Below are positions 16,736 to 35,231 of a stretch of 64,000 nucleotides of DNA, in pieces (the stretch's first letter is position 1; every line of letters begins with the position of its first letter). This DNA is from a virus, in the IMG/VR virus record IMGVR_UViG_3300010885_020237, positions 1 through 64,000 of that record; one strand, given 5' to 3'. Under the pieces are notes generated by a model, which was given only the letters and a program-made list of their open reading frames with translations, had not been told where the DNA came from and ran no database searches. The translations under genes were made by a program, and so were the position numbers.

Positions 16736-16808
16736 GTACTCCCTCAAGGATTCGAACCTCAACAAATTGTACCAAAAACAATTGTACTACCGTTATACTA
16801 AAGGAGTA
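16736..16808 (-). tRNA. tRNA-Gln(UUG)
   Basis: Cloverleaf: TACTCCT/GGGAGTA acceptor, ATTGT-TTTTGGT-ACAAT anticodon arm, GGTTCGAATCC T arm. Confidence 0.9.
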
Positions 16809-17000
16809 ATTTGACACTCTATTTTATCCAACTACAAGTGTCGTGGCTGTCCCTTTTCAGGTTAGGAATAATCATTCGACTTCTCGAGGTTCAGGCTGAT
16901 TTGCCCGGATATTACCACCTATCATATCCTAGGTACCCATACGGGCATCACCTCCGCTTCTCATCATATTGGGCATACTAGTCGGTGATTAATCGACTCG
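16809..17000 (-). ncRNA. unidentified structured GC-rich RNA between tRNA-like unit and tRNA-Gln
   Basis: Nested stems GAGGT/ACCTC, GCCCG/CGGGC, GGATAT/ATATCC; flanking hairpins AGTCG/CGACT and GACACT/AGTGTC; no ORF in the track. Confidence 0.45.
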
Positions 17001-17002
17001 TG

Positions 17003-17084
17003 TAGTCAGGACAGGATTTGAACCTGTAAGCTCCTTTTCGGGTAGGAACAACCTTATTGCGTCTACCAATTCCGCCACCTGACT
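17003..17084 (-). ncRNA. tRNA-like element 1 (Leu-type D arm, no canonical anticodon arm)
   Basis: AGTCAGG TG GCGGAATTGGTAGACGC ... ACAGG TTCAAAT CCTGT CCTGACT A. Confidence 0.75.
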
Positions 17085-17155
17085 ACGAAGACATCATTAG
17101 AATTTTGACCATTACATAGTTTCCTAAGTGTGAATATACTCCGTTGATGTCTTTG

Positions 17156-17230
17156 TAGTCAGGACAGGATTCGAACCTGTAATAGGCAACCATAAAGGAC
17201 TTGGAACCATTCCTCATTACGCTCCTGACT
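17156..17230 (-). ncRNA. tRNA-like element 2 (acceptor and T arm only, unrelated core)
   Basis: AGTCAGG AG...ACAGG TTCGAAT CCTGT CCTGACT A. Confidence 0.7.
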
Positions 17231-17323
17231 ATAAAACTCCACCCCGTAGGTGGAGAGAGCGAATTAAGGTATCGCTTTAAGACAATTTAGTCAACCAGTG
17301 CGCTTACCCTTTGGGTGGCGCTG

Positions 17324-17395
17324 TAGTCAAGACAGGATTCGAACCCGTATTACCACCGTGAAAGGGTGGTGACCTAACCCCTAGTCGATAGGCGC
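17324..17395 (-). pseudogene. chimeric tRNA-Glu(UUC) with non-pairing 3' acceptor strand
   Basis: GCGCCTA...CCACC-CTTTCAC-GGTGG...ACGGG TTCGAAT CCTGT CTTGACT A. The 3' strand is of the AGTCAGG-family type and cannot pair with GCGCCTA. Confidence 0.75.
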
Positions 17396-17782
17396 TGGAG
17401 GAGATGCGGGGATTCGAACCCCGGTCTCCGTAAGTAATCATAATACCCTTCTTACATGCTTAGTCATACTGTACACAGTGACAAGAGTTCGATCTGCAAG
17501 CTGATCAGTATTGGGGTCGTACGGCTACGTACAACTAGGCCACCACTTGGTTTAAGTCCAAGAACTATTTTTGTAACTTACTGTTCCATCCAAGTTACCA
17601 GGAGAAGAAATCTTAAGCTGCTACAGCCATTTCTACATTGGCAAAAGCCATGTTGATAATGCGTGCACCTTCTTCTTGACGAGAAATTGTATTGTCGTTT
17701 ATTTTTTTAGGAGTGGTTTGACGCTCCCACGTCTTGCATGTGATACTACCATTCTCATACGGATCAAATGCCTGTCATCCCC
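17396..17782 (-). ncRNA. ssrA: tmRNA
   Basis: 5' GGGGATG pairs with 3' CATCTCC (G3:U), T arm GGGTTCGAATCCC, encoded CCA; tag ORF 17696-17613 DNTISRQEEGARIINMAFANVEMAVAA*. Confidence 0.93.
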
Positions 17783-18316: not shown

Positions 18317-18583
18317 TTAGTCTTTAGTATTTTCGGTAGAAGTTTTCTTACTAAATTTGTCTAATGAATCTGCGCCCATACCGATAGCTGTAATAATCAT
18401 TACTGCGTCTACCAATTTATCGGCAGGTTTAAATTTTTCTTCTGAGAAAGAGTTAGCGCATAATGTAATGCATAAAAATAAAGCACCTAAAAGAGCTACT
18501 ACTGGCTTAATTGATGTTGAACCTCTTTCGTCTTTGAAAAGTGATATGCACCACTCTTTGAATGTCATGTTTTGATCGCTCAT
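18317..18583 (-). CDS. two-TM membrane protein, holin-like
   Basis: Two hydrophobic helices, charged C-terminus, DERGSTSIKP. Confidence 0.55.
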   Translation of the reverse strand: MSDQNMTFKEWCISLFKDERGSTSIKPVVALLGALFLCITLCANSFSEEKFKPADKLVDAVMIITAIGMGADSLDKFSKKTSTENTKD

Positions 18584-19293
18584 AATAAATTTATTTTATG
18601 GTGTTTGTTTATCAAATACCTTGATTTATTCAGAACTCTTTCTGCTTCTGACATGCTTGAATATATTATGTCATCTATCATTATTTTTTTACCGAGTTTA
18701 TCAACTACTTCTTTAGGTCTTTTTACTCCTTTTAGAGACGATTTTATTTTATTTTTAGTTTCTTCGCTATGTATATAGCCATTATTTTTTCTTGTCTCAA
18801 TAGCTTTAGTATAACTATTTTTAGTATGATTTCCCCTTTTAACGCCTTTAAATTTATTAGATAATATTATCTTTGTTTCTTCTTTGCATTTAGGCATTTT
18901 TCTACCTTTTAAATTCTTATTTCTTTTTTCTATAGCTTCTTCTGACCAATTAAGTTTTCGACCTTTCATTTTTTTACTTATCCTTGATTTCTCATCTTTG
19001 CTTTTAGGTCCTCCTCCTCCATCTCCATTTTCTTTTTTTAAATTTGCCCAATCATTATTATCTACAATATTATAAAGATCACTATAATATAAACCTTGTT
19101 CTTTTAATAATTCTTTATCTTCAGTTTCAAATAAAATTATTGTTTTTATATCTTTAGAAGACAATTTATATTTTTTAATATGATGTAACCATCTTGTACC
19201 ACTACCTAAATATTCAAAAGGATTTTGCTCGGTTTTTCCTAAATACTTTAATCCTCTCGGACTCTCTTTTACATACAAGTATATTTTTTTCAT
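18580..19293 (-). CDS. free-standing GIY-YIG-type homing endonuclease with NUMOD3-like repeats
   Basis: IYLY...KYLGKT...YLGSG, WANL..E.G.GG, HSEETKNKI. Confidence 0.8.
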   Translation of the reverse strand: MKKIYLYVKESPRGLKYLGKTEQNPFEYLGSGTRWLHHIKKYKLSSKDIKTIILFETEDKELLKEQGLYYSDLYNIVDNNDWANLKKENGDGGGGPKSKDEKSRISKKMKGRKLNWSEEAIEKRNKNLKGRKMPKCKEETKIILSNKFKGVKRGNHTKNSYTKAIETRKNNGYIHSEETKNKIKSSLKGVKRPKEVVDKLGKKIMIDDIIYSSMSEAERVLNKSRYLINKHHKINLL

Positions 19294-29471: not shown

Positions 29472-31115
29472 TTACATTCCCATCATTCCAGCCATTGGAT
29501 CTGCTGCTGCTTCGCTTTTATCTTTCTTTTCAAAGATAACTGATTCAGTTGTCAATATTGTTCCTGCTACAGAGGCTGCGTTCTTTAATGCAGTAATAAC
29601 CACTTTAGTTGGATCAATTAAACCTTCTTCAATAGCATCAACTACTTTACCTGCTTTAGCATCGTAAGTAGCATCAGGATTTGGAGAAGTCATTATTTCT
29701 TGAGCAATCTCGTACCAATTTTCAATACCAGAATTAGAAAGAATTTTCTTAAATGGAGCTTCGGCAGCTTTAATAATAATGTTGTATGCGATATCTTCAG
29801 CGCCAACTCTGTTATTACTCTTTAATTTTTGAGCTGCTCTATATAAAGCTATTCCACCTCCTGGTACAATACCATCAGCTAATGCTGCTTTTGTTGCATA
29901 TAAAGCATCTTCAACTCGGTCTTTCTTTTCTTTGATTTCAATATCAGAATTTCCTCCTACATTAATGATAGCAACTCCGCCGATTAATTTACCAAGTCTT
30001 TCTTGTAACTTTTCTTTTTCGTAGAAAGAAGTGGCTTTTTCAATCTGTTCTTTGATTTCTTCAGCTCTTTTTTCAATTGCTTCTTGATCCCCTTTACCAT
30101 CTACAATTGTAGTCTCTTCTTTAGATACTGTAGCCATTCTAGCGGTACCTAAAAACTGAGCCAATTGCGTAGGAACTAATTTATCTAATTTGTGTCCTTT
30201 GTCTTTTGAAATTACTTGACCTCCAGTAAGAATTGCAATATCTTCTAAGATTAAGGTTTTTCTTTCTCCGAAGTCTGGTGCTTTAACAGCTACAACTTGA
30301 ACGATACCTCTCATCTTATTAACAATAAGAGTAGCTAATGCTTCATCTCCAAAATCTTCAGCGATGATTAGTAAAGGCTTGCTTTCTGAATTGGCTTTAG
30401 TTAAAACTTGCAGTAATTCTTGAGCAGTAGAGATTCTACCGTCGTATAACATTACATAAGGATTCTCTAATCCAGCTTGCATCGTTGTGTTGTTGGTTAC
30501 AAAATAAGGAGATTTATATCCTCTATCGAATTGCATACCTTCAACAATTTCTAAACTGGTTTCTCCTGTTTTAGATTCTTCAATGGTTACTACACCTTCA
30601 CGACCAACTTTTTCAATAGCAGTTGCAATTAAGTTACCAATCTCTTCATCGTTATTTCCAGAGATGGTTGCTACTTGCTTGATTTGAGCTTGAGAAGATA
30701 CATCTTCTGATTTGCTTTTAACCTCTTTAATAATCTCTTCTACTGCTTCATCGATAGCAATTTTAATTTCTACAGCGTTAGTACCTTGACGAATGTTTTT
30801 TAAACCTTCTTCAACGATAGCAGTTGCTAATAGAGTAGAAGTGGTAGTTCCATCACCTGCTTCATTAGCAGATTTGATACTTACTTCTTTTACAAGTTGT
30901 GCACCTAAATCTTCGATATCGTCTTCCAATTTATGAAATGCTTTTGCAACTGTAACTCCATCTTTAGTAACTTTTACTTCTCCGCTTTGTTCTTTGATTA
31001 GAACTGTTCTACCACCTGGTCCTAATGTAGAGGATACAGATTGATTTAATTTTTGAATTCCTAATAATAACTTTTCTTTTAAGTCAGTACCGAATGCGTT
31101 TTGCGTTGTACTCAT
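29472..31115 (-). CDS. groL: chaperonin GroEL
   Basis: [42 protein letters not shown] tail. Confidence 0.98.
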
Positions 31116-32918: not shown

Positions 32919-35231
32919 CTAATGTCCTTCAAGCCAGTTTTTGGCTAAAGATGGTACAGCAATTAATGGGACGTCCAATTTGGTTGTATTCTCCATTTTA
33001 TCCTGTATAATAGCTGCGGCTTCTGCTGCTCTTTCATATTCTACTTCTATGATTAACTGATCGTGGATTTGCGCGCAGACCCAACCTTTAATGCCTTTTG
33101 CGATAAACTCTCTATTTATATGTATAGCTGCTCTATTTACTATAGATGCAGCTAAACCTTGTATTTGTACATTACAGCTATTATTTAGTCCATTTTTATA
33201 GTCTCTATATAATTTAGTTATTTGATCTTCTCCAAATTCATAAGATAGTTGTTTTTTTATATTCCAATCTAATAAAGAATCCCCTAATTCAGCATATATT
33301 TCTTTTACTTTAGGCAAGTGTCTTATTCTACCTACTTGAGTTTTTATATAACCAAATTCTTTTACATATTTAACTGAATTCTCCATCCATTTTTTTAATT
33401 TTGGAAATCCATTTAAATAACCGTCTACTAATTTTTTAGCATCTTTAGTAGGAATATCTAAATTTTTACCTAAAGCATACGGTGACATTCCATAAGGAAT
33501 ACCTAGAGCATAGGCTTTTGCTTTATTTCTAATTTTTGGTTTGTGTTTTCTTAAAAAATTATCAGCTTTTTTATCTGGAGAATAGTCGTATAATTTTTCT
33601 GTTTGAATAGCTATTGTACAATAGAAATCCCATCCATTTTTAAAGATATCGATTAATCCTATATCACCTGAGACATGTGCAAATACACTCGGCTCTAGAG
33701 AAGAGTAATCATCATCGACAAATATATTGTGTTCATCAGGAATAAAAAATGCTCTAACTCTATTATTATACTCTAATACAATTGGATCATCATCGCCTTC
33801 TTCTTTTGGTCTAGGTAACTGTTGAGCATCAGATCCGTAGCGGCCAGAAACTGTACCATGTTGTTTGTAACTAAAATAGTAACGGCCATCTTCTTGAGCG
33901 TCTAAGAATCTTTCCACATAAGTAGATTTAATCTTTAATAATTTATTATAGATTCTTAAGTTTCTTGCCCATTCTTCTGTATCTCCAATTAATTGGATCA
34001 TGTCATCATCAAATTGTGGCTTTCCACCTTTTGTAGTAGATAATGCTTTTATGCCCAAAGCTTTGAATGCAATTTCACCTAATTGATCTTTAGACTGTAT
34101 GTTAAACCAATTACCGTCATTAGATTCTTTCCATAGTTTTAATTGTATTTTTACAATTTGATCCTTATCAAGCATTTGAGCATCACCGTGAAGTAAGAAC
34201 TGTTTTACTGCGCTATCTGGGATTCTTAAAATATTTGCATTAGCTATATTGTACTTACCACTTTTCTCTGACTTTGGAAAGTCTATACCGCTTTGATTGA
34301 TTAATTCTATGGCAAATGTTCCTCTATTGTTTGCGGGGAATTCCTGCGCCGCTTTTAACATGATCCAGTTCTTTACTTCAGCGTAACTAAGTAACTGATC
34401 CATAACCTTAGTTCTGTGATCCTCTAGAGCTTGTGTAACTTCTTCTTTTGTTCTACGAATAAGATCCATATCCAATTTAACACCTATACTTTCCATTGGA
34501 ATGGTTACCTCTTTGTAAAGTGGCATTACTTCATCTTCAAAAAAGAAGGCTTCTAATCCCTGATCGTAAAGGTCTTTTATAAAGTGATTGTATACTCTAA
34601 GTGTTAAATCTGTATCTGCTGCAGCATATTCGGCTAATATGTTAATATCAGCTTTCCATATCTCGTAATTTTCTCTTGTAACAGAACCACCATTTTCTTT
34701 GATCGATGATTTTAGCGCAAGCTGCTCTTCATTGGCAGCTTTTTCTATATCAAGTCCAAGTTCTGTTTGAATCATTTTAGCAATACTTTTTAATCCAAAT
34801 GGAGAATTGGATCCAAATCCAGCTCCTTCTTCATTTACAGTATGAACTAATAACATTGTATCAGCGTGTAAGGAATCTAACAAATCAATGCCGTAAAAAC
34901 ACTTAATAAATCTGCCATCGAAAGAAAAATTATGAGCGATTAATTTTTTACCATGAAGTAAATTAAGTATTTTTTTAGCTATATCATGACATGATACGCC
35001 GTCTACAGTATTTTCTATAAGAGAATTTGATTCTTTATCATATAATAGTGTAGGCAAATAATATCCATAGCCCTCTATTGCTGATATAGACAGACCTATT
35101 ATTTTTCCTTTTCTAGGATTTAAACTGTTAGTTTCAGTGTCTATTGATATTATGTCATAACTTTTTATATGGTCAACTAGATTTTTGATATCTTCTTTTG
35201 TTGAAACATGTACATACTTTTTATTTATCAT
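32919..35231 (-). CDS. polA: family A DNA polymerase with 3'-5' exonuclease
   Basis: DTET, AHNFSFD, YAAAD; GTVSGR; motif A DYSSLE, motif B RNKAKAYALGIPYG, motif C QIHDQ. Confidence 0.95.
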   Translation of the reverse strand: MINKKYVHVSTKEDIKNLVDHIKSYDIISIDTETNSLNPRKGKIIGLSISAIEGYGYYLPTLLYDKESNSLIENTVDGVSCHDIAKKILNLLHGKKLIAHNFSFDGRFIKCFYGIDLLDSLHADTMLLVHTVNEEGAGFGSNSPFGLKSIAKMIQTELGLDIEKAANEEQLALKSSIKENGGSVTRENYEIWKADINILAEYAAADTDLTLRVYNHFIKDLYDQGLEAFFFEDEVMPLYKEVTIPMESIGVKLDMDLIRRTKEEVTQALEDHRTKVMDQLLSYAEVKNWIMLKAAQEFPANNRGTFAIELINQSGIDFPKSEKSGKYNIANANILRIPDSAVKQFLLHGDAQMLDKDQIVKIQLKLWKESNDGNWFNIQSKDQLGEIAFKALGIKALSTTKGGKPQFDDDMIQLIGDTEEWARNLRIYNKLLKIKSTYVERFLDAQEDGRYYFSYKQHGTVSGRYGSDAQQLPRPKEEGDDDPIVLEYNNRVRAFFIPDEHNIFVDDDYSSLEPSVFAHVSGDIGLIDIFKNGWDFYCTIAIQTEKLYDYSPDKKADNFLRKHKPKIRNKAKAYALGIPYGMSPYALGKNLDIPTKDAKKLVDGYLNGFPKLKKWMENSVKYVKEFGYIKTQVGRIRHLPKVKEIYAELGDSLLDWNIKKQLSYEFGEDQITKLYRDYKNGLNNSCNVQIQGLAASIVNRAAIHINREFIAKGIKGWVCAQIHDQLIIEVEYERAAEAAAIIQDKMENTTKLDVPLIAVPSLAKNWLEGH

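What the first reader, a model, noticed from the sequence alone, without database searches (positions are those of the whole stretch)
17001..17349. Array of tRNA-like units sharing acceptor and T arm but with unrelated cores
Seen: the ~28-bp block TGTAGTCARGACAGGATTYGAACCYGTA recurs at 17001, 17154 and 17322 (spacings 153 and 168). Units 1 and 2 have a perfect AGTCAGG/CCTGACT acceptor and an ACAGG/CCTGT T stem, but different interiors with no canonical 7-nt anticodon loop; unit 2 also lacks a normal D arm. Established: acceptor stem plus T arm is the minimal substrate for RNase P, RNase Z and CCA-adding enzyme. Inference: these are not decoding tRNAs. They may be processing punctuation that releases the intervening structured RNAs, tRNA-mimic decoys against host anticodon nucleases or tRNA-sensing defences, or stable scaffolds displaying variable cargo sequence.
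Basis: partly seen in the sequence, partly recalled or inferred. Interest (0 to 1): 0.8.

Follow-up and report, generated by a model that had tools for sequence, protein, structure and literature searches.

The report
Phage tRNA-shaped RNAs with swapped cores
Next to its tmRNA and tRNA-Gln genes, an uncultured large phage carries two genes for small RNAs that keep the upper half of a leucine tRNA but hold other folded modules where the anticodon arm should be, plus one broken tRNA-Glu fused to the same 3' end; they belong to a very large phage RNA family of unknown function whose only studied relatives are the 'tRNA-like stable RNAs' of phage T5.

Summary
The 28-mer repeat is real: 3 copies, none expected by chance. 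It lies on the coding (minus) strand, where it forms the T arm plus 3' acceptor strand of three tRNA-like genes. The gene order is tmRNA, unit 3, unit 2, unit 1, a 190-nt RNA, tRNA-Gln.

Units 1 and 2 do not decode. Each has a paired AGUCAGG/CCUGACU acceptor, A73, a T arm and a non-anticodon module. Unit 1 also keeps a leucine-type D arm. Unit 3 is a tRNA-Glu(UUC) body whose last 15-25 nt were replaced by the shared 3' end. Its acceptor cannot pair, so it is probably a recombination product.

The same frame occurs in at least 119 viral contigs. Among 186 inserts there are 162 unrelated classes and no anticodon arm. The frame is almost absent from bacterial genomes. When the acceptor is not fixed in the search, AGUCAGG is only the commonest (44%) of 36 covarying acceptor helices.

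Phages carrying the frame share no protein. The frame therefore probably uses host tRNA machinery (RNase P, 3' trimming/CCA, possibly LeuRS), and the insert is the working part. Its job is unknown. Phage T5 RNA1 and RNA2 have the same architecture. This scan met the family at least eight times before on other DNA.

The parts
17396..17782 (-). Phage-encoded tmRNA gene (context). Its encoded CCA end abuts unit 3 with no spacer.
   Evidence: ARAGORN tmRNA; Rfam RF00023 68.8 bits against a threshold of 47; homologous tmRNA in relative L152.
17324..17395 (-). Unit 3: a chimera. It has the 5' acceptor strand, D arm and anticodon arm (loop CUUUCAC, anticodon UUC) of a tRNA-Glu, joined inside the T loop (between 17348 and 17338) to the family's T-arm 3' half and acceptor strand CUUGACU-A. 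The acceptor cannot pair (1 G-U pair and 1 G-C pair of 7).
   Evidence: Rfam tRNA local match to model positions 10-63 only, 35.7 bits. No AGTCAAG or AGTCAGG partner and no TAGGCGC strand nearby. Intact tRNA-Glu genes in relatives L142, L143, L081 and L099 have a near-identical 5' strand and a Glu-type T loop.
17231..17323 (-). Spacer with four predicted hairpins. The last (17255..17237) looks like an intrinsic terminator followed by UUUUAU.
   Evidence: MFE -31.2 kcal/mol, z -3.4; terminator-like site.
17156..17230 (-). Unit 2: a tRNA-frame RNA with a perfect acceptor, A73, T arm and no standard D arm. Its core is one irregular hairpin of a conserved class.
   Evidence: Fold. Homologues in L152, L103 and L115 have 8 pairs with compensatory changes in the acceptor and T stems. 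Rfam tRNA 23.8 bits, below threshold.
17085..17155 (-). 67-nt hairpin 'leader' between units 2 and 1.
   Evidence: z -3.4. Near-identical copies occur in six other viral contigs, each 2-5 nt upstream of a frame unit, with different inserts downstream.
17003..17084 (-). Unit 1: a complete leucine-type frame (acceptor, U8, D arm GGCGGAAUUGGUAGACGC, U48, T arm, A73). A 6-bp stem with an 8-nt loop replaces the anticodon arm, and there is no long variable arm.
   Evidence: An orthologue with an identical 31-nt insert and the same upstream hairpin occurs in L356 and L357.
16808..17002 (-). About 190-nt G+C-rich structured RNA between unit 1 and tRNA-Gln (neighbour, not a frame unit).
   Evidence: No Rfam match even at E 10. 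Homologues in L095 and L096 also lie directly after a frame unit; 11 of 31 predicted pairs show compensatory changes.
16737..16807 (-). Canonical tRNA-Gln(UUG), the only canonical tRNA in the 93.7-kb contig.
   Evidence: ARAGORN and Rfam 57.7 bits.

Best explanation
Units 1 and 2 are genes for non-decoding, tRNA-shaped small RNAs. They belong to a large phage family derived from tRNA-Leu. The family keeps the acceptor stem, discriminator A73, T arm and usually the leucine-type D arm, that is, the tRNA 'upper half' and elbow. In place of the anticodon and variable arms it carries an unrelated folded module.

Proposed mechanism. The cluster is transcribed with the tmRNA and tRNA-Gln. The frame makes the host treat each unit as a pre-tRNA: RNase P cuts at A1, and the 3' end is trimmed and given CCA like the phage's real tRNAs. 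The compact L-shaped frame then stabilises the RNA. For units with the full leucine identity set, such as unit 1, the frame may also allow charging by LeuRS. The insert is the lineage-specific working part, and its target is unknown. The same cuts release the conserved RNAs that lie between units. Inserts are exchanged between phages by recombination in the constant frames. Unit 3 is a by-product of such recombination, a tRNA-Glu fused at the T loop to a frame 3' end, and is probably inactive.

Shown: anatomy, family size, covariation, insert diversity, modular exchange, absence of anticodon arms. Inferred: processing, stability, charging, and that the insert is the effector.
For: Anatomy of units 1 and 2.

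Family size. There are 189 distinct units from 126 loci, with frame positions 96-100% conserved and lengths of 54-191 nt.

Inserts. 186 inserts fall into 162 clusters, 146 of them singletons. None of 189 + 99 units has a 5-bp/7-nt anticodon stem-loop after the D arm. Inserts fold better than shuffled sequence in 90% of cases (median z -0.9).

RNA-level selection. In a search that left the acceptor free, 85 new units had 36 different 5' strands. They averaged 6.5 of 7 pairs, against 4.4 when the strands were shuffled among units. The unit 2 class has 8 compensatory pairs. The same insert sits on three different acceptors in L072, L142 and L143.

Handled like tRNAs. A C follows the discriminator in 183 of 189 units and in 103 of 103 true tRNAs of the same loci, and CCA is rarely encoded in either. 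The units lie in tRNA clusters on the tRNA strand.

Leucine identity set. U8 97%, A14 87%, GG 90%, U48 83%, A73 97%. For bacterial LeuRS, A73 and the U8-A14, G18-U55 and G19-C56 core are critical, and deleting the whole anticodon stem-loop costs only 2.5-fold in affinity (PMC2377443).

No phage partner. Nine frame-bearing genomes (33-174 kb, G+C 32-50%) share no protein cluster in more than 5 of 9. PolB is present in only 5 of 10 complete genomes.

Not a host tRNA. There are 14 hits in 185,579 species genomes, all on MAG contigs, and none is a called tRNA.

Exchange. L013 and L358 are 95% identical over 758 nt spanning one unit, but that unit's insert differs completely. Unit 1's insert is identical in L356 and L357. 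Unit 3 is a chimera.

Precedent. T5 RNA1 and RNA2, annotated 'tRNA-like stable RNA', fold into the same architecture.
Against: Folding z-scores of the two units are modest (-1.8 and -1.6). Unit 2 lacks U8 and a D arm, and the L356 orthologue of unit 1 lacks the GG of the D loop, so not every copy can form a standard elbow. A pure scaffold role does not explain why one acceptor sequence dominates at 44%. No target or partner of any insert was found. [quoted passage not shown]
Confidence: 0.55

Rival explanations
1. The frame itself is the working part. The units act as tRNA-Leu mimics that bind or titrate a host factor recognising the upper half of tRNA (LeuRS, EF-Tu, CCA enzyme, a tRNA-sensing or tRNA-cutting defence protein). 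The inserts matter little beyond blocking decoding.
For: The leucine identity set is kept (PMC2377443). One frame sequence dominates across phages that share no protein. Several copies per genome are common.
Against: Insert classes are conserved between distant phages, with the frame changing around them. A sponge would not need 162 different inserts of 20-100 nt. Acceptor sequences vary freely when they are not selected for. The inserts do not resemble anticodon loops.
Confidence: 0.13
2. Processing punctuation. The units exist mainly so that RNase P and the 3' tRNA pathway release the RNAs lying between them (the 67-nt hairpin, the 190-nt RNA, the tmRNA 3' end). Their own cores are irrelevant.
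For: The intervening RNAs are structured and conserved. The hairpin is near-identical in six other contigs and always lies just 5' of a unit. The 190-nt RNA follows a unit in three phages. The tmRNA CCA end abuts unit 3.
Against: Most units in other phages are flanked by ordinary tRNAs, short A/T-rich spacers or small ORFs. A minimal acceptor/T hairpin would suffice for punctuation, yet D arms and long conserved inserts are kept.
Confidence: 0.12
3. DNA-level cassettes. The conserved 5' and 3' frames are recombination sites of a mobile, possibly selfish, cassette system spreading through phage tRNA clusters. The RNA shape is a legacy of the tRNA-Leu ancestor.
For: One insert is swapped in an otherwise 95%-identical context. 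Unit 3 is a chimera with its junction in the T loop. True tRNA-Lys and tRNA-Ile bodies carry the same acceptor and T arm. A homing-endonuclease-like gene lies next to the cluster, as in T4 and T5.
Against: Acceptor and T stems covary so that pairing is kept, which points to selection on a folded strand, not on a DNA site. Tertiary-contact bases (U8, A14, GG, U48) are kept. No shared recombinase was found.
Confidence: 0.08
4. Decaying tRNA pseudogenes left by duplication and recombination in a tRNA cluster, with no function.
For: Unit 3 looks like a dead tRNA-Glu. Unit 2 scores below the tRNA threshold. Some copies in relatives have mismatched acceptors (L152).
Against: The frames are 96-100% conserved while the cores are unrelated, which is the opposite of uniform decay. 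There is covariation. Unit 1's insert is identical and unit 2's core is conserved in other phages.
Confidence: 0.05

Closest known systems
Phage T5 RNA1 and RNA2 (AY543070 misc_RNA rna1 30501-30644 and rna2 32959-33083, annotated 'tRNA-like stable RNA with unknown functions')
   Same: They lie in the phage tRNA cluster on the tRNA strand, among homing endonuclease genes. Each has a paired acceptor, T arm and discriminator A, with about 60-80 nt of extra hairpins where the anticodon arm should be. RNA1 carries the same leucine-type D arm (CCGGAAUUGGUAGACGG). RNA2 has a T arm that differs from this family's at one base.
   Different: The acceptor sequences and inserts are different. BLAST does not link them to the window's units. 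T5 infects E. coli, whereas this family comes from uncultured, mostly aquatic viral contigs. The T5 RNAs were seen as stable RNAs (per the record's annotation); these were not.
Phage T4 species 1 RNA (rnaC) and species 2 RNA (rnaD)
   Same: They are small stable RNAs of unknown function at the end of the T4 tRNA cluster, next to the segB homing endonuclease. rnaC has a GGUUCGAAUCC T arm near its 3' end and long inserted hairpins.
   Different: rnaC has no leucine-type D arm and only a weak acceptor-like stem in the predicted fold. rnaD shows no T arm.
tmRNA (RF00023)
   Same: It has a tRNA upper half (acceptor, T arm, reduced D loop) with a large insert in place of the anticodon arm. It is processed by RNase P and is charged independently of an anticodon. 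One is encoded directly upstream.
   Different: tmRNA has alanine identity (G3-U70), a tag reading frame and pseudoknots, and needs SmpB. The units have 26-33-nt cores, no reading frame and no Rfam tmRNA match.
Engineered 'tRNA scaffold' for recombinant RNA expression (used in PMC3753655, listed)
   Same: The design principle is the same: keep the acceptor, D and T arms so the cell processes and stabilises the RNA, and put the cargo where the anticodon arm was.
   Different: It is man-made and based on tRNA-Lys or tRNA-Met. This is an analogy of function only.
Aminoacylatable tRNA-like structures of plant RNA viruses (TLS-Val, -His, -Tyr)
   Same: They are viral tRNA mimics that use host CCA enzyme, synthetase and elongation factor without decoding (PMC4810235).
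   Different: They are cis elements at the 3' end of RNA genomes with a pseudoknotted acceptor. They are not separate genes of DNA phages and carry no variable cargo.

Membership tests
Canonical tRNA (Rfam RF00005) | 7-bp acceptor stem closed by the 5' and 3' ends | tested here: met
   Met for units 1 and 2 (7/7 Watson-Crick). NOT met for unit 3 (2 of 7).
Canonical tRNA (Rfam RF00005) | 5-bp anticodon stem with a 7-nt loop (Y-U-NNN-R-N) | tested here: not met
   Unit 1 has a 6-bp stem with an 8-nt loop. Unit 2 has an irregular hairpin. The feature is present only in unit 3 (CUUUCAC). 0 of 288 family members have it.
Canonical tRNA (Rfam RF00005) | Score at or above the curated threshold (29 bits), full length | tested here: inconclusive
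   Unit 1 scores 40.3 bits, but with a 24-nt insertion replacing the anticodon arm. Unit 2 scores 23.8 (below threshold). Unit 3 scores 35.7 as a local match to positions 10-63 only.
Phage leucine-type tRNA-frame RNAs (T5 RNA1-like) | Gene in a phage tRNA cluster, on the same strand as the tRNAs | tested here: met
   The cluster runs tmRNA, units, tRNA-Gln on the minus strand. The same holds in other contigs and in T5.
Phage leucine-type tRNA-frame RNAs (T5 RNA1-like) | Paired acceptor + discriminator A + canonical T arm | tested here: met
   Units 1 and 2. In the family, A73 is 97%, and 81% in the search that left the acceptor free. Unit 3 has only the 3' half.
Phage leucine-type tRNA-frame RNAs (T5 RNA1-like) | Leucine-type D arm with U8, A14, A15, G18G19 and U48 | tested here: met
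   Unit 1 has all of them. Unit 2 does not: position 8 is A and there is no D stem. It belongs to a conserved sub-class with another core.
Phage leucine-type tRNA-frame RNAs (T5 RNA1-like) | Non-anticodon module between the D arm and T arm | tested here: met
Phage leucine-type tRNA-frame RNAs (T5 RNA1-like) | Accumulates as a discrete stable RNA in infected cells | not testable with these tools
This is known for T5 only from the record's annotation.
tmRNA | Tag reading frame with resume codon, pseudoknots, G3-U70 | tested here: not met
   The cores are 26-33 nt. There is no Rfam tmRNA hit on the units even at E 10. Position 3-70 is U-A.
Bacterial Y RNA-like (YrlA) tRNA mimics | Long terminal Ro-binding stem with the tRNA-like module at its tip | tested here: not met
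   No Rfam match. The termini form a 7-bp acceptor stem, not a Ro-binding stem.
Duplicated tRNA 3' ends left by integrases (att sites) | Isolated 3' tRNA fragments flanking an integrated element | tested here: not met
   Units 1 and 2 are complete, with matching 5' strands. The spacings are 153-168 nt with no element between them.

The most novel reading that the evidence does not exclude
The frame RNAs are charged with leucine by host LeuRS, because they keep exactly the anticodon-independent identity set. They then act as aminoacylated, non-decoding effector RNAs: a phage-wide, modular counterpart of tmRNA and plant-virus TLS. Charging and EF-Tu binding would protect or localise the RNA, and the exchangeable insert would give each RNA its target.
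Probability: 0.15. Interest if true: 0.85.

Novelty: new variant of a known kind. Interest (0 to 1): 0.62.

Why it matters
Phage T4 and T5 have been recorded as making tRNA-like stable RNAs of unknown function, a point that has stayed an unexplained curiosity. These units show that the architecture is widespread rather than an oddity of two coliphages. A tRNA-Leu upper half with an exchangeable module occurs in hundreds of uncultured phages that share no proteins, with hundreds of different inserts.

That makes three questions testable:
- What the inserts do.
- Whether anticodon-less leucine tRNA mimics are charged in vivo.
- How phages trade RNA modules.

T5 RNA1 and RNA2 offer a tractable model. 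The family would also be a natural version of the tRNA scaffold used in RNA engineering.

For annotation, these genes are currently miscalled as odd tRNAs (Pro, Glu, Ile, 'undetermined') or missed altogether.

Tried and rejected
- Cultured phages by sequence. Unit 1 against 50,697 phage records gave nothing at E 0.01, and only fragments of true tRNAs at E 10.
- Host tRNA copy. The exact 3' frame is in only 14 MAG contigs, none a called tRNA. True tRNA-Leu genes of the Bacteroidota MAGs that hold a copy of the frame share the D arm but have a normal anticodon arm and variable arm.
- Real tRNA-Leu with a giant variable arm. Rejected: 0 of 288 units have an anticodon stem-loop after the D arm.
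- Spacer-like or antisense inserts. Inserts against about 1.5 Mb of masked loci gave only further frame units, otherwise no more hits than shuffled inserts (33 against 12, the excess being homologous units). The longest antisense match of each insert to its own genome (9-13 nt, one of 17) is no longer than to unrelated genomes (9-18 nt). Short seed pairing is not excluded.
- Universal phage-encoded partner. No BLASTP cluster is shared by more than 5 of 9 frame-bearing genomes. Remote homology was not tested.
- Independent copies of the unit 3 junction. None were found in viral or metagenome contigs (the window's own record may be masked). An assembly artefact therefore cannot be excluded, although the shared stretch at the junction is only about 10-14 nt.
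- An alternative 56-nt D-armless fold of unit 3 (GGUUAGG pairing with CUUGACU through three G-U pairs). I judged it likely to be chance, at roughly 0.2 expected per scan.
- Literature. Six full-text searches found no description of this family. A 2023 catalogue of viral structured RNAs mentions only five generic 'tRNA-like' candidates (PMC10690425). A 2026 preprint on bacterial tRNA mimics concerns other RNAs.
- Integrase att remnants and YrlA/Y RNA. Rejected on anatomy (see membership tests).

Full report
**Observation.** The degenerate 28-mer occurs exactly three times in the window (17001, 17154 and 17322 on the + strand). No further copy appears even with three mismatches allowed, and none appeared in 100 dinucleotide-preserving shuffles. 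There is no other copy in the 93.7-kb viral contig that holds the window. All long reading frames run on the minus strand. The contig is a large myovirus-like phage, with a family-A-type DNA polymerase, DnaB, ribonucleotide reductase, GroEL and tail sheath. On the minus strand the block reads as T-stem 5' strand, T loop, T-stem 3' strand, 3' acceptor strand, discriminator A and two more bases.

**Locus.** Reading the minus strand, the order is:
- tmRNA, 17782..17396 (Rfam 68.8 bits)
- unit 3, 17395..17324
- a 93-nt spacer with four hairpins, the last terminator-like
- unit 2, 17230..17156
- a 67-nt hairpin
- unit 1, 17084..17003
- a roughly 190-nt structured RNA
- tRNA-Gln, 16807..16737, the only canonical tRNA in the contig

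**Unit 1.** It has a perfect 7-bp acceptor, U8, a D arm identical to that of bacterial tRNA-Leu, U48, a canonical T arm and A73. A 6-bp stem with an 8-nt loop stands where the anticodon arm should be, and there is no long variable arm. ARAGORN calls it 'tRNA-???'.

**Unit 2.** It has the same acceptor, T arm and A73, but no U8 and no D stem. Its core is one irregular hairpin. It scores 23.8 bits against the tRNA model, below the threshold of 29.

**Unit 3.** It is a different object. Its 5' strand, D arm and anticodon arm (anticodon UUC) are those of the tRNA-Glu genes of related phages. From inside the T loop onward it carries the family 3' end, so only 2 of 7 acceptor positions can pair. Relatives found through the neighbouring PD-(D/E)XK nuclease gene have an intact tRNA-Glu followed by tRNA-Met and frame units. 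Unit 3 is therefore best read as a recombination or deletion product between a tRNA-Glu and a frame unit. I could not exclude an assembly error.

- I collected 189 distinct units from 126 loci. Acceptor and T-arm positions are 96-100% conserved, and lengths run from 54 to 191 nt with a median of 103.
- The 186 inserts of at least 15 nt fall into 162 similarity clusters, 146 of them singletons.
- None of these units has a 5-bp/7-nt anticodon stem-loop after the D arm. The same holds for 99 further units found without fixing the acceptor.
- ARAGORN gives the units scattered or impossible anticodons, or misses them.
- The frame is almost absent from cellular genomes. There are 14 hits in 185,579 species genomes, all on MAG contigs and none a called tRNA.
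- By sequence it is absent from 50,697 cultured-phage records.
- Rfam has no family for it, and six literature searches found no description (papers read).
- Earlier notes of this scan describe the same family on at least eight other genomes. I re-derived it independently here.

**The frame is a folded RNA, not an invariant word.** The first collection was chosen by the exact 3' frame, so its constancy is partly built in. I therefore searched for a leucine-type D arm, then 60-90 nt, then a T loop, with the acceptor and T stem left free.
- Of 85 new distinct units, 44% have the AGUCAGG strand.
- The rest carry 35 other 5' strands.
- Pairing averages 6.5 of 7, against 4.4 when the 3' strands are shuffled among units.
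- A73 is kept in 81%.

Orthologous inserts sit on different, compensating acceptors. This holds for the L072, L142 and L143 class. It also holds for the class of unit 2, where the window, L152, L103 and L115 show eight pairs with changes on both sides. AGUCAGG/CCUGACU is thus the dominant allele of a covarying helix. Selection acts on pairing and on the tertiary-contact bases: U8 97%, A14 87%, GG 90%, U48 83%.

**Treated like tRNAs.** A C follows the discriminator in 183 of 189 units and in 103 of 103 true tRNAs of the same loci. CCA itself is rarely encoded in either. This suggests one shared 3' maturation route.

**No phage partner.** Eight frame-bearing genomes that are at least 90% complete, plus this contig, span 33-174 kb and 32-50% G+C. 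No BLASTP protein cluster is found in more than five of the nine. PolB is present in 5 of 10 complete genomes. Whatever reads the frame is therefore probably a host function.

**Modularity.**
- Unit 1's 31-nt insert is identical in L356 and L357, where the D loop and T arm differ slightly.
- The 67-nt hairpin upstream of unit 1 is near-identical in six other contigs. It always lies 2-5 nt before a frame unit, but the inserts downstream include five different ones.
- L013 and L358 are 95% identical over 758 nt that include one unit, yet that unit's insert is completely different.
- True tRNA-Lys(UUU) and tRNA-Ile(UAU) bodies occur with the same acceptor and T arm.

Together with unit 3, this shows that recombination in the constant parts reshuffles cores.

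**Mechanism.** The evidence shows that these are selected, folded, non-decoding tRNA-shaped RNAs with exchangeable cores. The rest is inference.
- The frame recruits RNase P, 3' trimming and the CCA enzyme, and gives stability.
- The insert is the effector.
- The same cuts free the conserved neighbouring RNAs.

The kept bases are the anticodon-independent identity set of bacterial LeuRS. That set is A73 plus the U8-A14, G18-U55 and G19-C56 core, and deleting the anticodon stem-loop costs only 2.5-fold in affinity (PMC2377443). Charging with leucine is therefore a serious but untested possibility. The same paper reports that variable-arm orientation is also needed, which is a caveat. I found no target. 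There is no extended antisense match to a unit's own genome and no spacer-like matches.

**Known relatives.** The T5 record annotates RNA1 and RNA2 as 'tRNA-like stable RNA with unknown functions' inside its tRNA cluster. Folding shows acceptor, T arm and inserted hairpins in both. RNA1 has a leucine-type D arm that matches unit 1's at 16 of 18 positions. T4 rnaC has a T arm and long inserted hairpins, but no such D arm. T4 and T5 also have homing endonuclease genes in these clusters. The window has a NUMOD3-containing ORF just upstream of the cluster. The architecture is therefore a known but unexplained kind. What is new is its scale, its dominant frame and its insert turnover.

**Verdict.** Unit 3 is a chimera. 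The function of the inserts is unknown.

Noticed in passing
window 16808-17002 (-): A roughly 190-nt G+C-rich RNA lies between unit 1 and tRNA-Gln. It has homologues in L095 and L096, again directly after a frame unit. It has conserved blocks, and 11 of 31 predicted pairs show compensatory changes. There is no Rfam match.
   Followed up: partly
window 17085-17155 (-); L013, L355-L359: A 67-nt hairpin is near-identical (1-2 differences) in six other viral contigs. It always lies 2-5 nt upstream of a frame unit, whatever that unit's insert. It contains an AGGAAA...AUGUAA start-stop motif in its loop region. Its role (leader, small RNA or promoter) is unknown.
   Followed up: partly
window 17396-17782 (-): The phage-encoded tmRNA has an encoded CCA and U instead of A at the discriminator. 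Its 3' end abuts unit 3 directly, so RNase P cleavage at unit 3 would be needed to free it, yet unit 3 lacks an acceptor stem. Relative L152 also encodes a tmRNA.
   Followed up: no
L144:1074-1228, L145, L147:585-760, L148:2775-2917, L205:5248-5390: Relatives of this phage carry a second tRNA-framed RNA of 143-176 nt. It has a conserved insert of about 100 nt (core GGGUUGACCAC) and covarying acceptors (UGACAGG, UGUUUCC, UGUAGGG with matching 3' strands).
   Followed up: no
L037 (71-nt tRNA-Lys UUU) and L068:4958-5030 (tRNA-Ile UAU): Apparently functional decoding tRNAs carry the family's AGUCAGG acceptor and T arm. This suggests that whole acceptor/T modules are exchanged between true tRNAs and frame RNAs.
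   Followed up: partly
window 18580-19293 (-): An ORF with a NUMOD3 motif (homing-endonuclease-like) lies just upstream of the RNA cluster. This parallels segB in the T4 tRNA cluster and hegA, hegC and hegD in the T5 tRNA cluster.
   Followed up: no
canonical tRNAs in loci L004-L205: All 103 canonical tRNAs in these phage loci have C directly after the discriminator, but only 7 encode CCA (CAA and CUA dominate). This is a uniform 3'-trailer rule shared with the frame RNAs.
   Followed up: partly
G042:16150-16402, G006:518-752, G007:33562-33772, G031:6111-6309: A small 65-83-aa protein (N-terminal MTPKEKA, central QCALIAVDEI-like motif, C-terminal VKQEI) is the only protein the 33-kb frame-bearing phage shares with larger ones (4 of 9 genomes). 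Its function is unknown.
   Followed up: no
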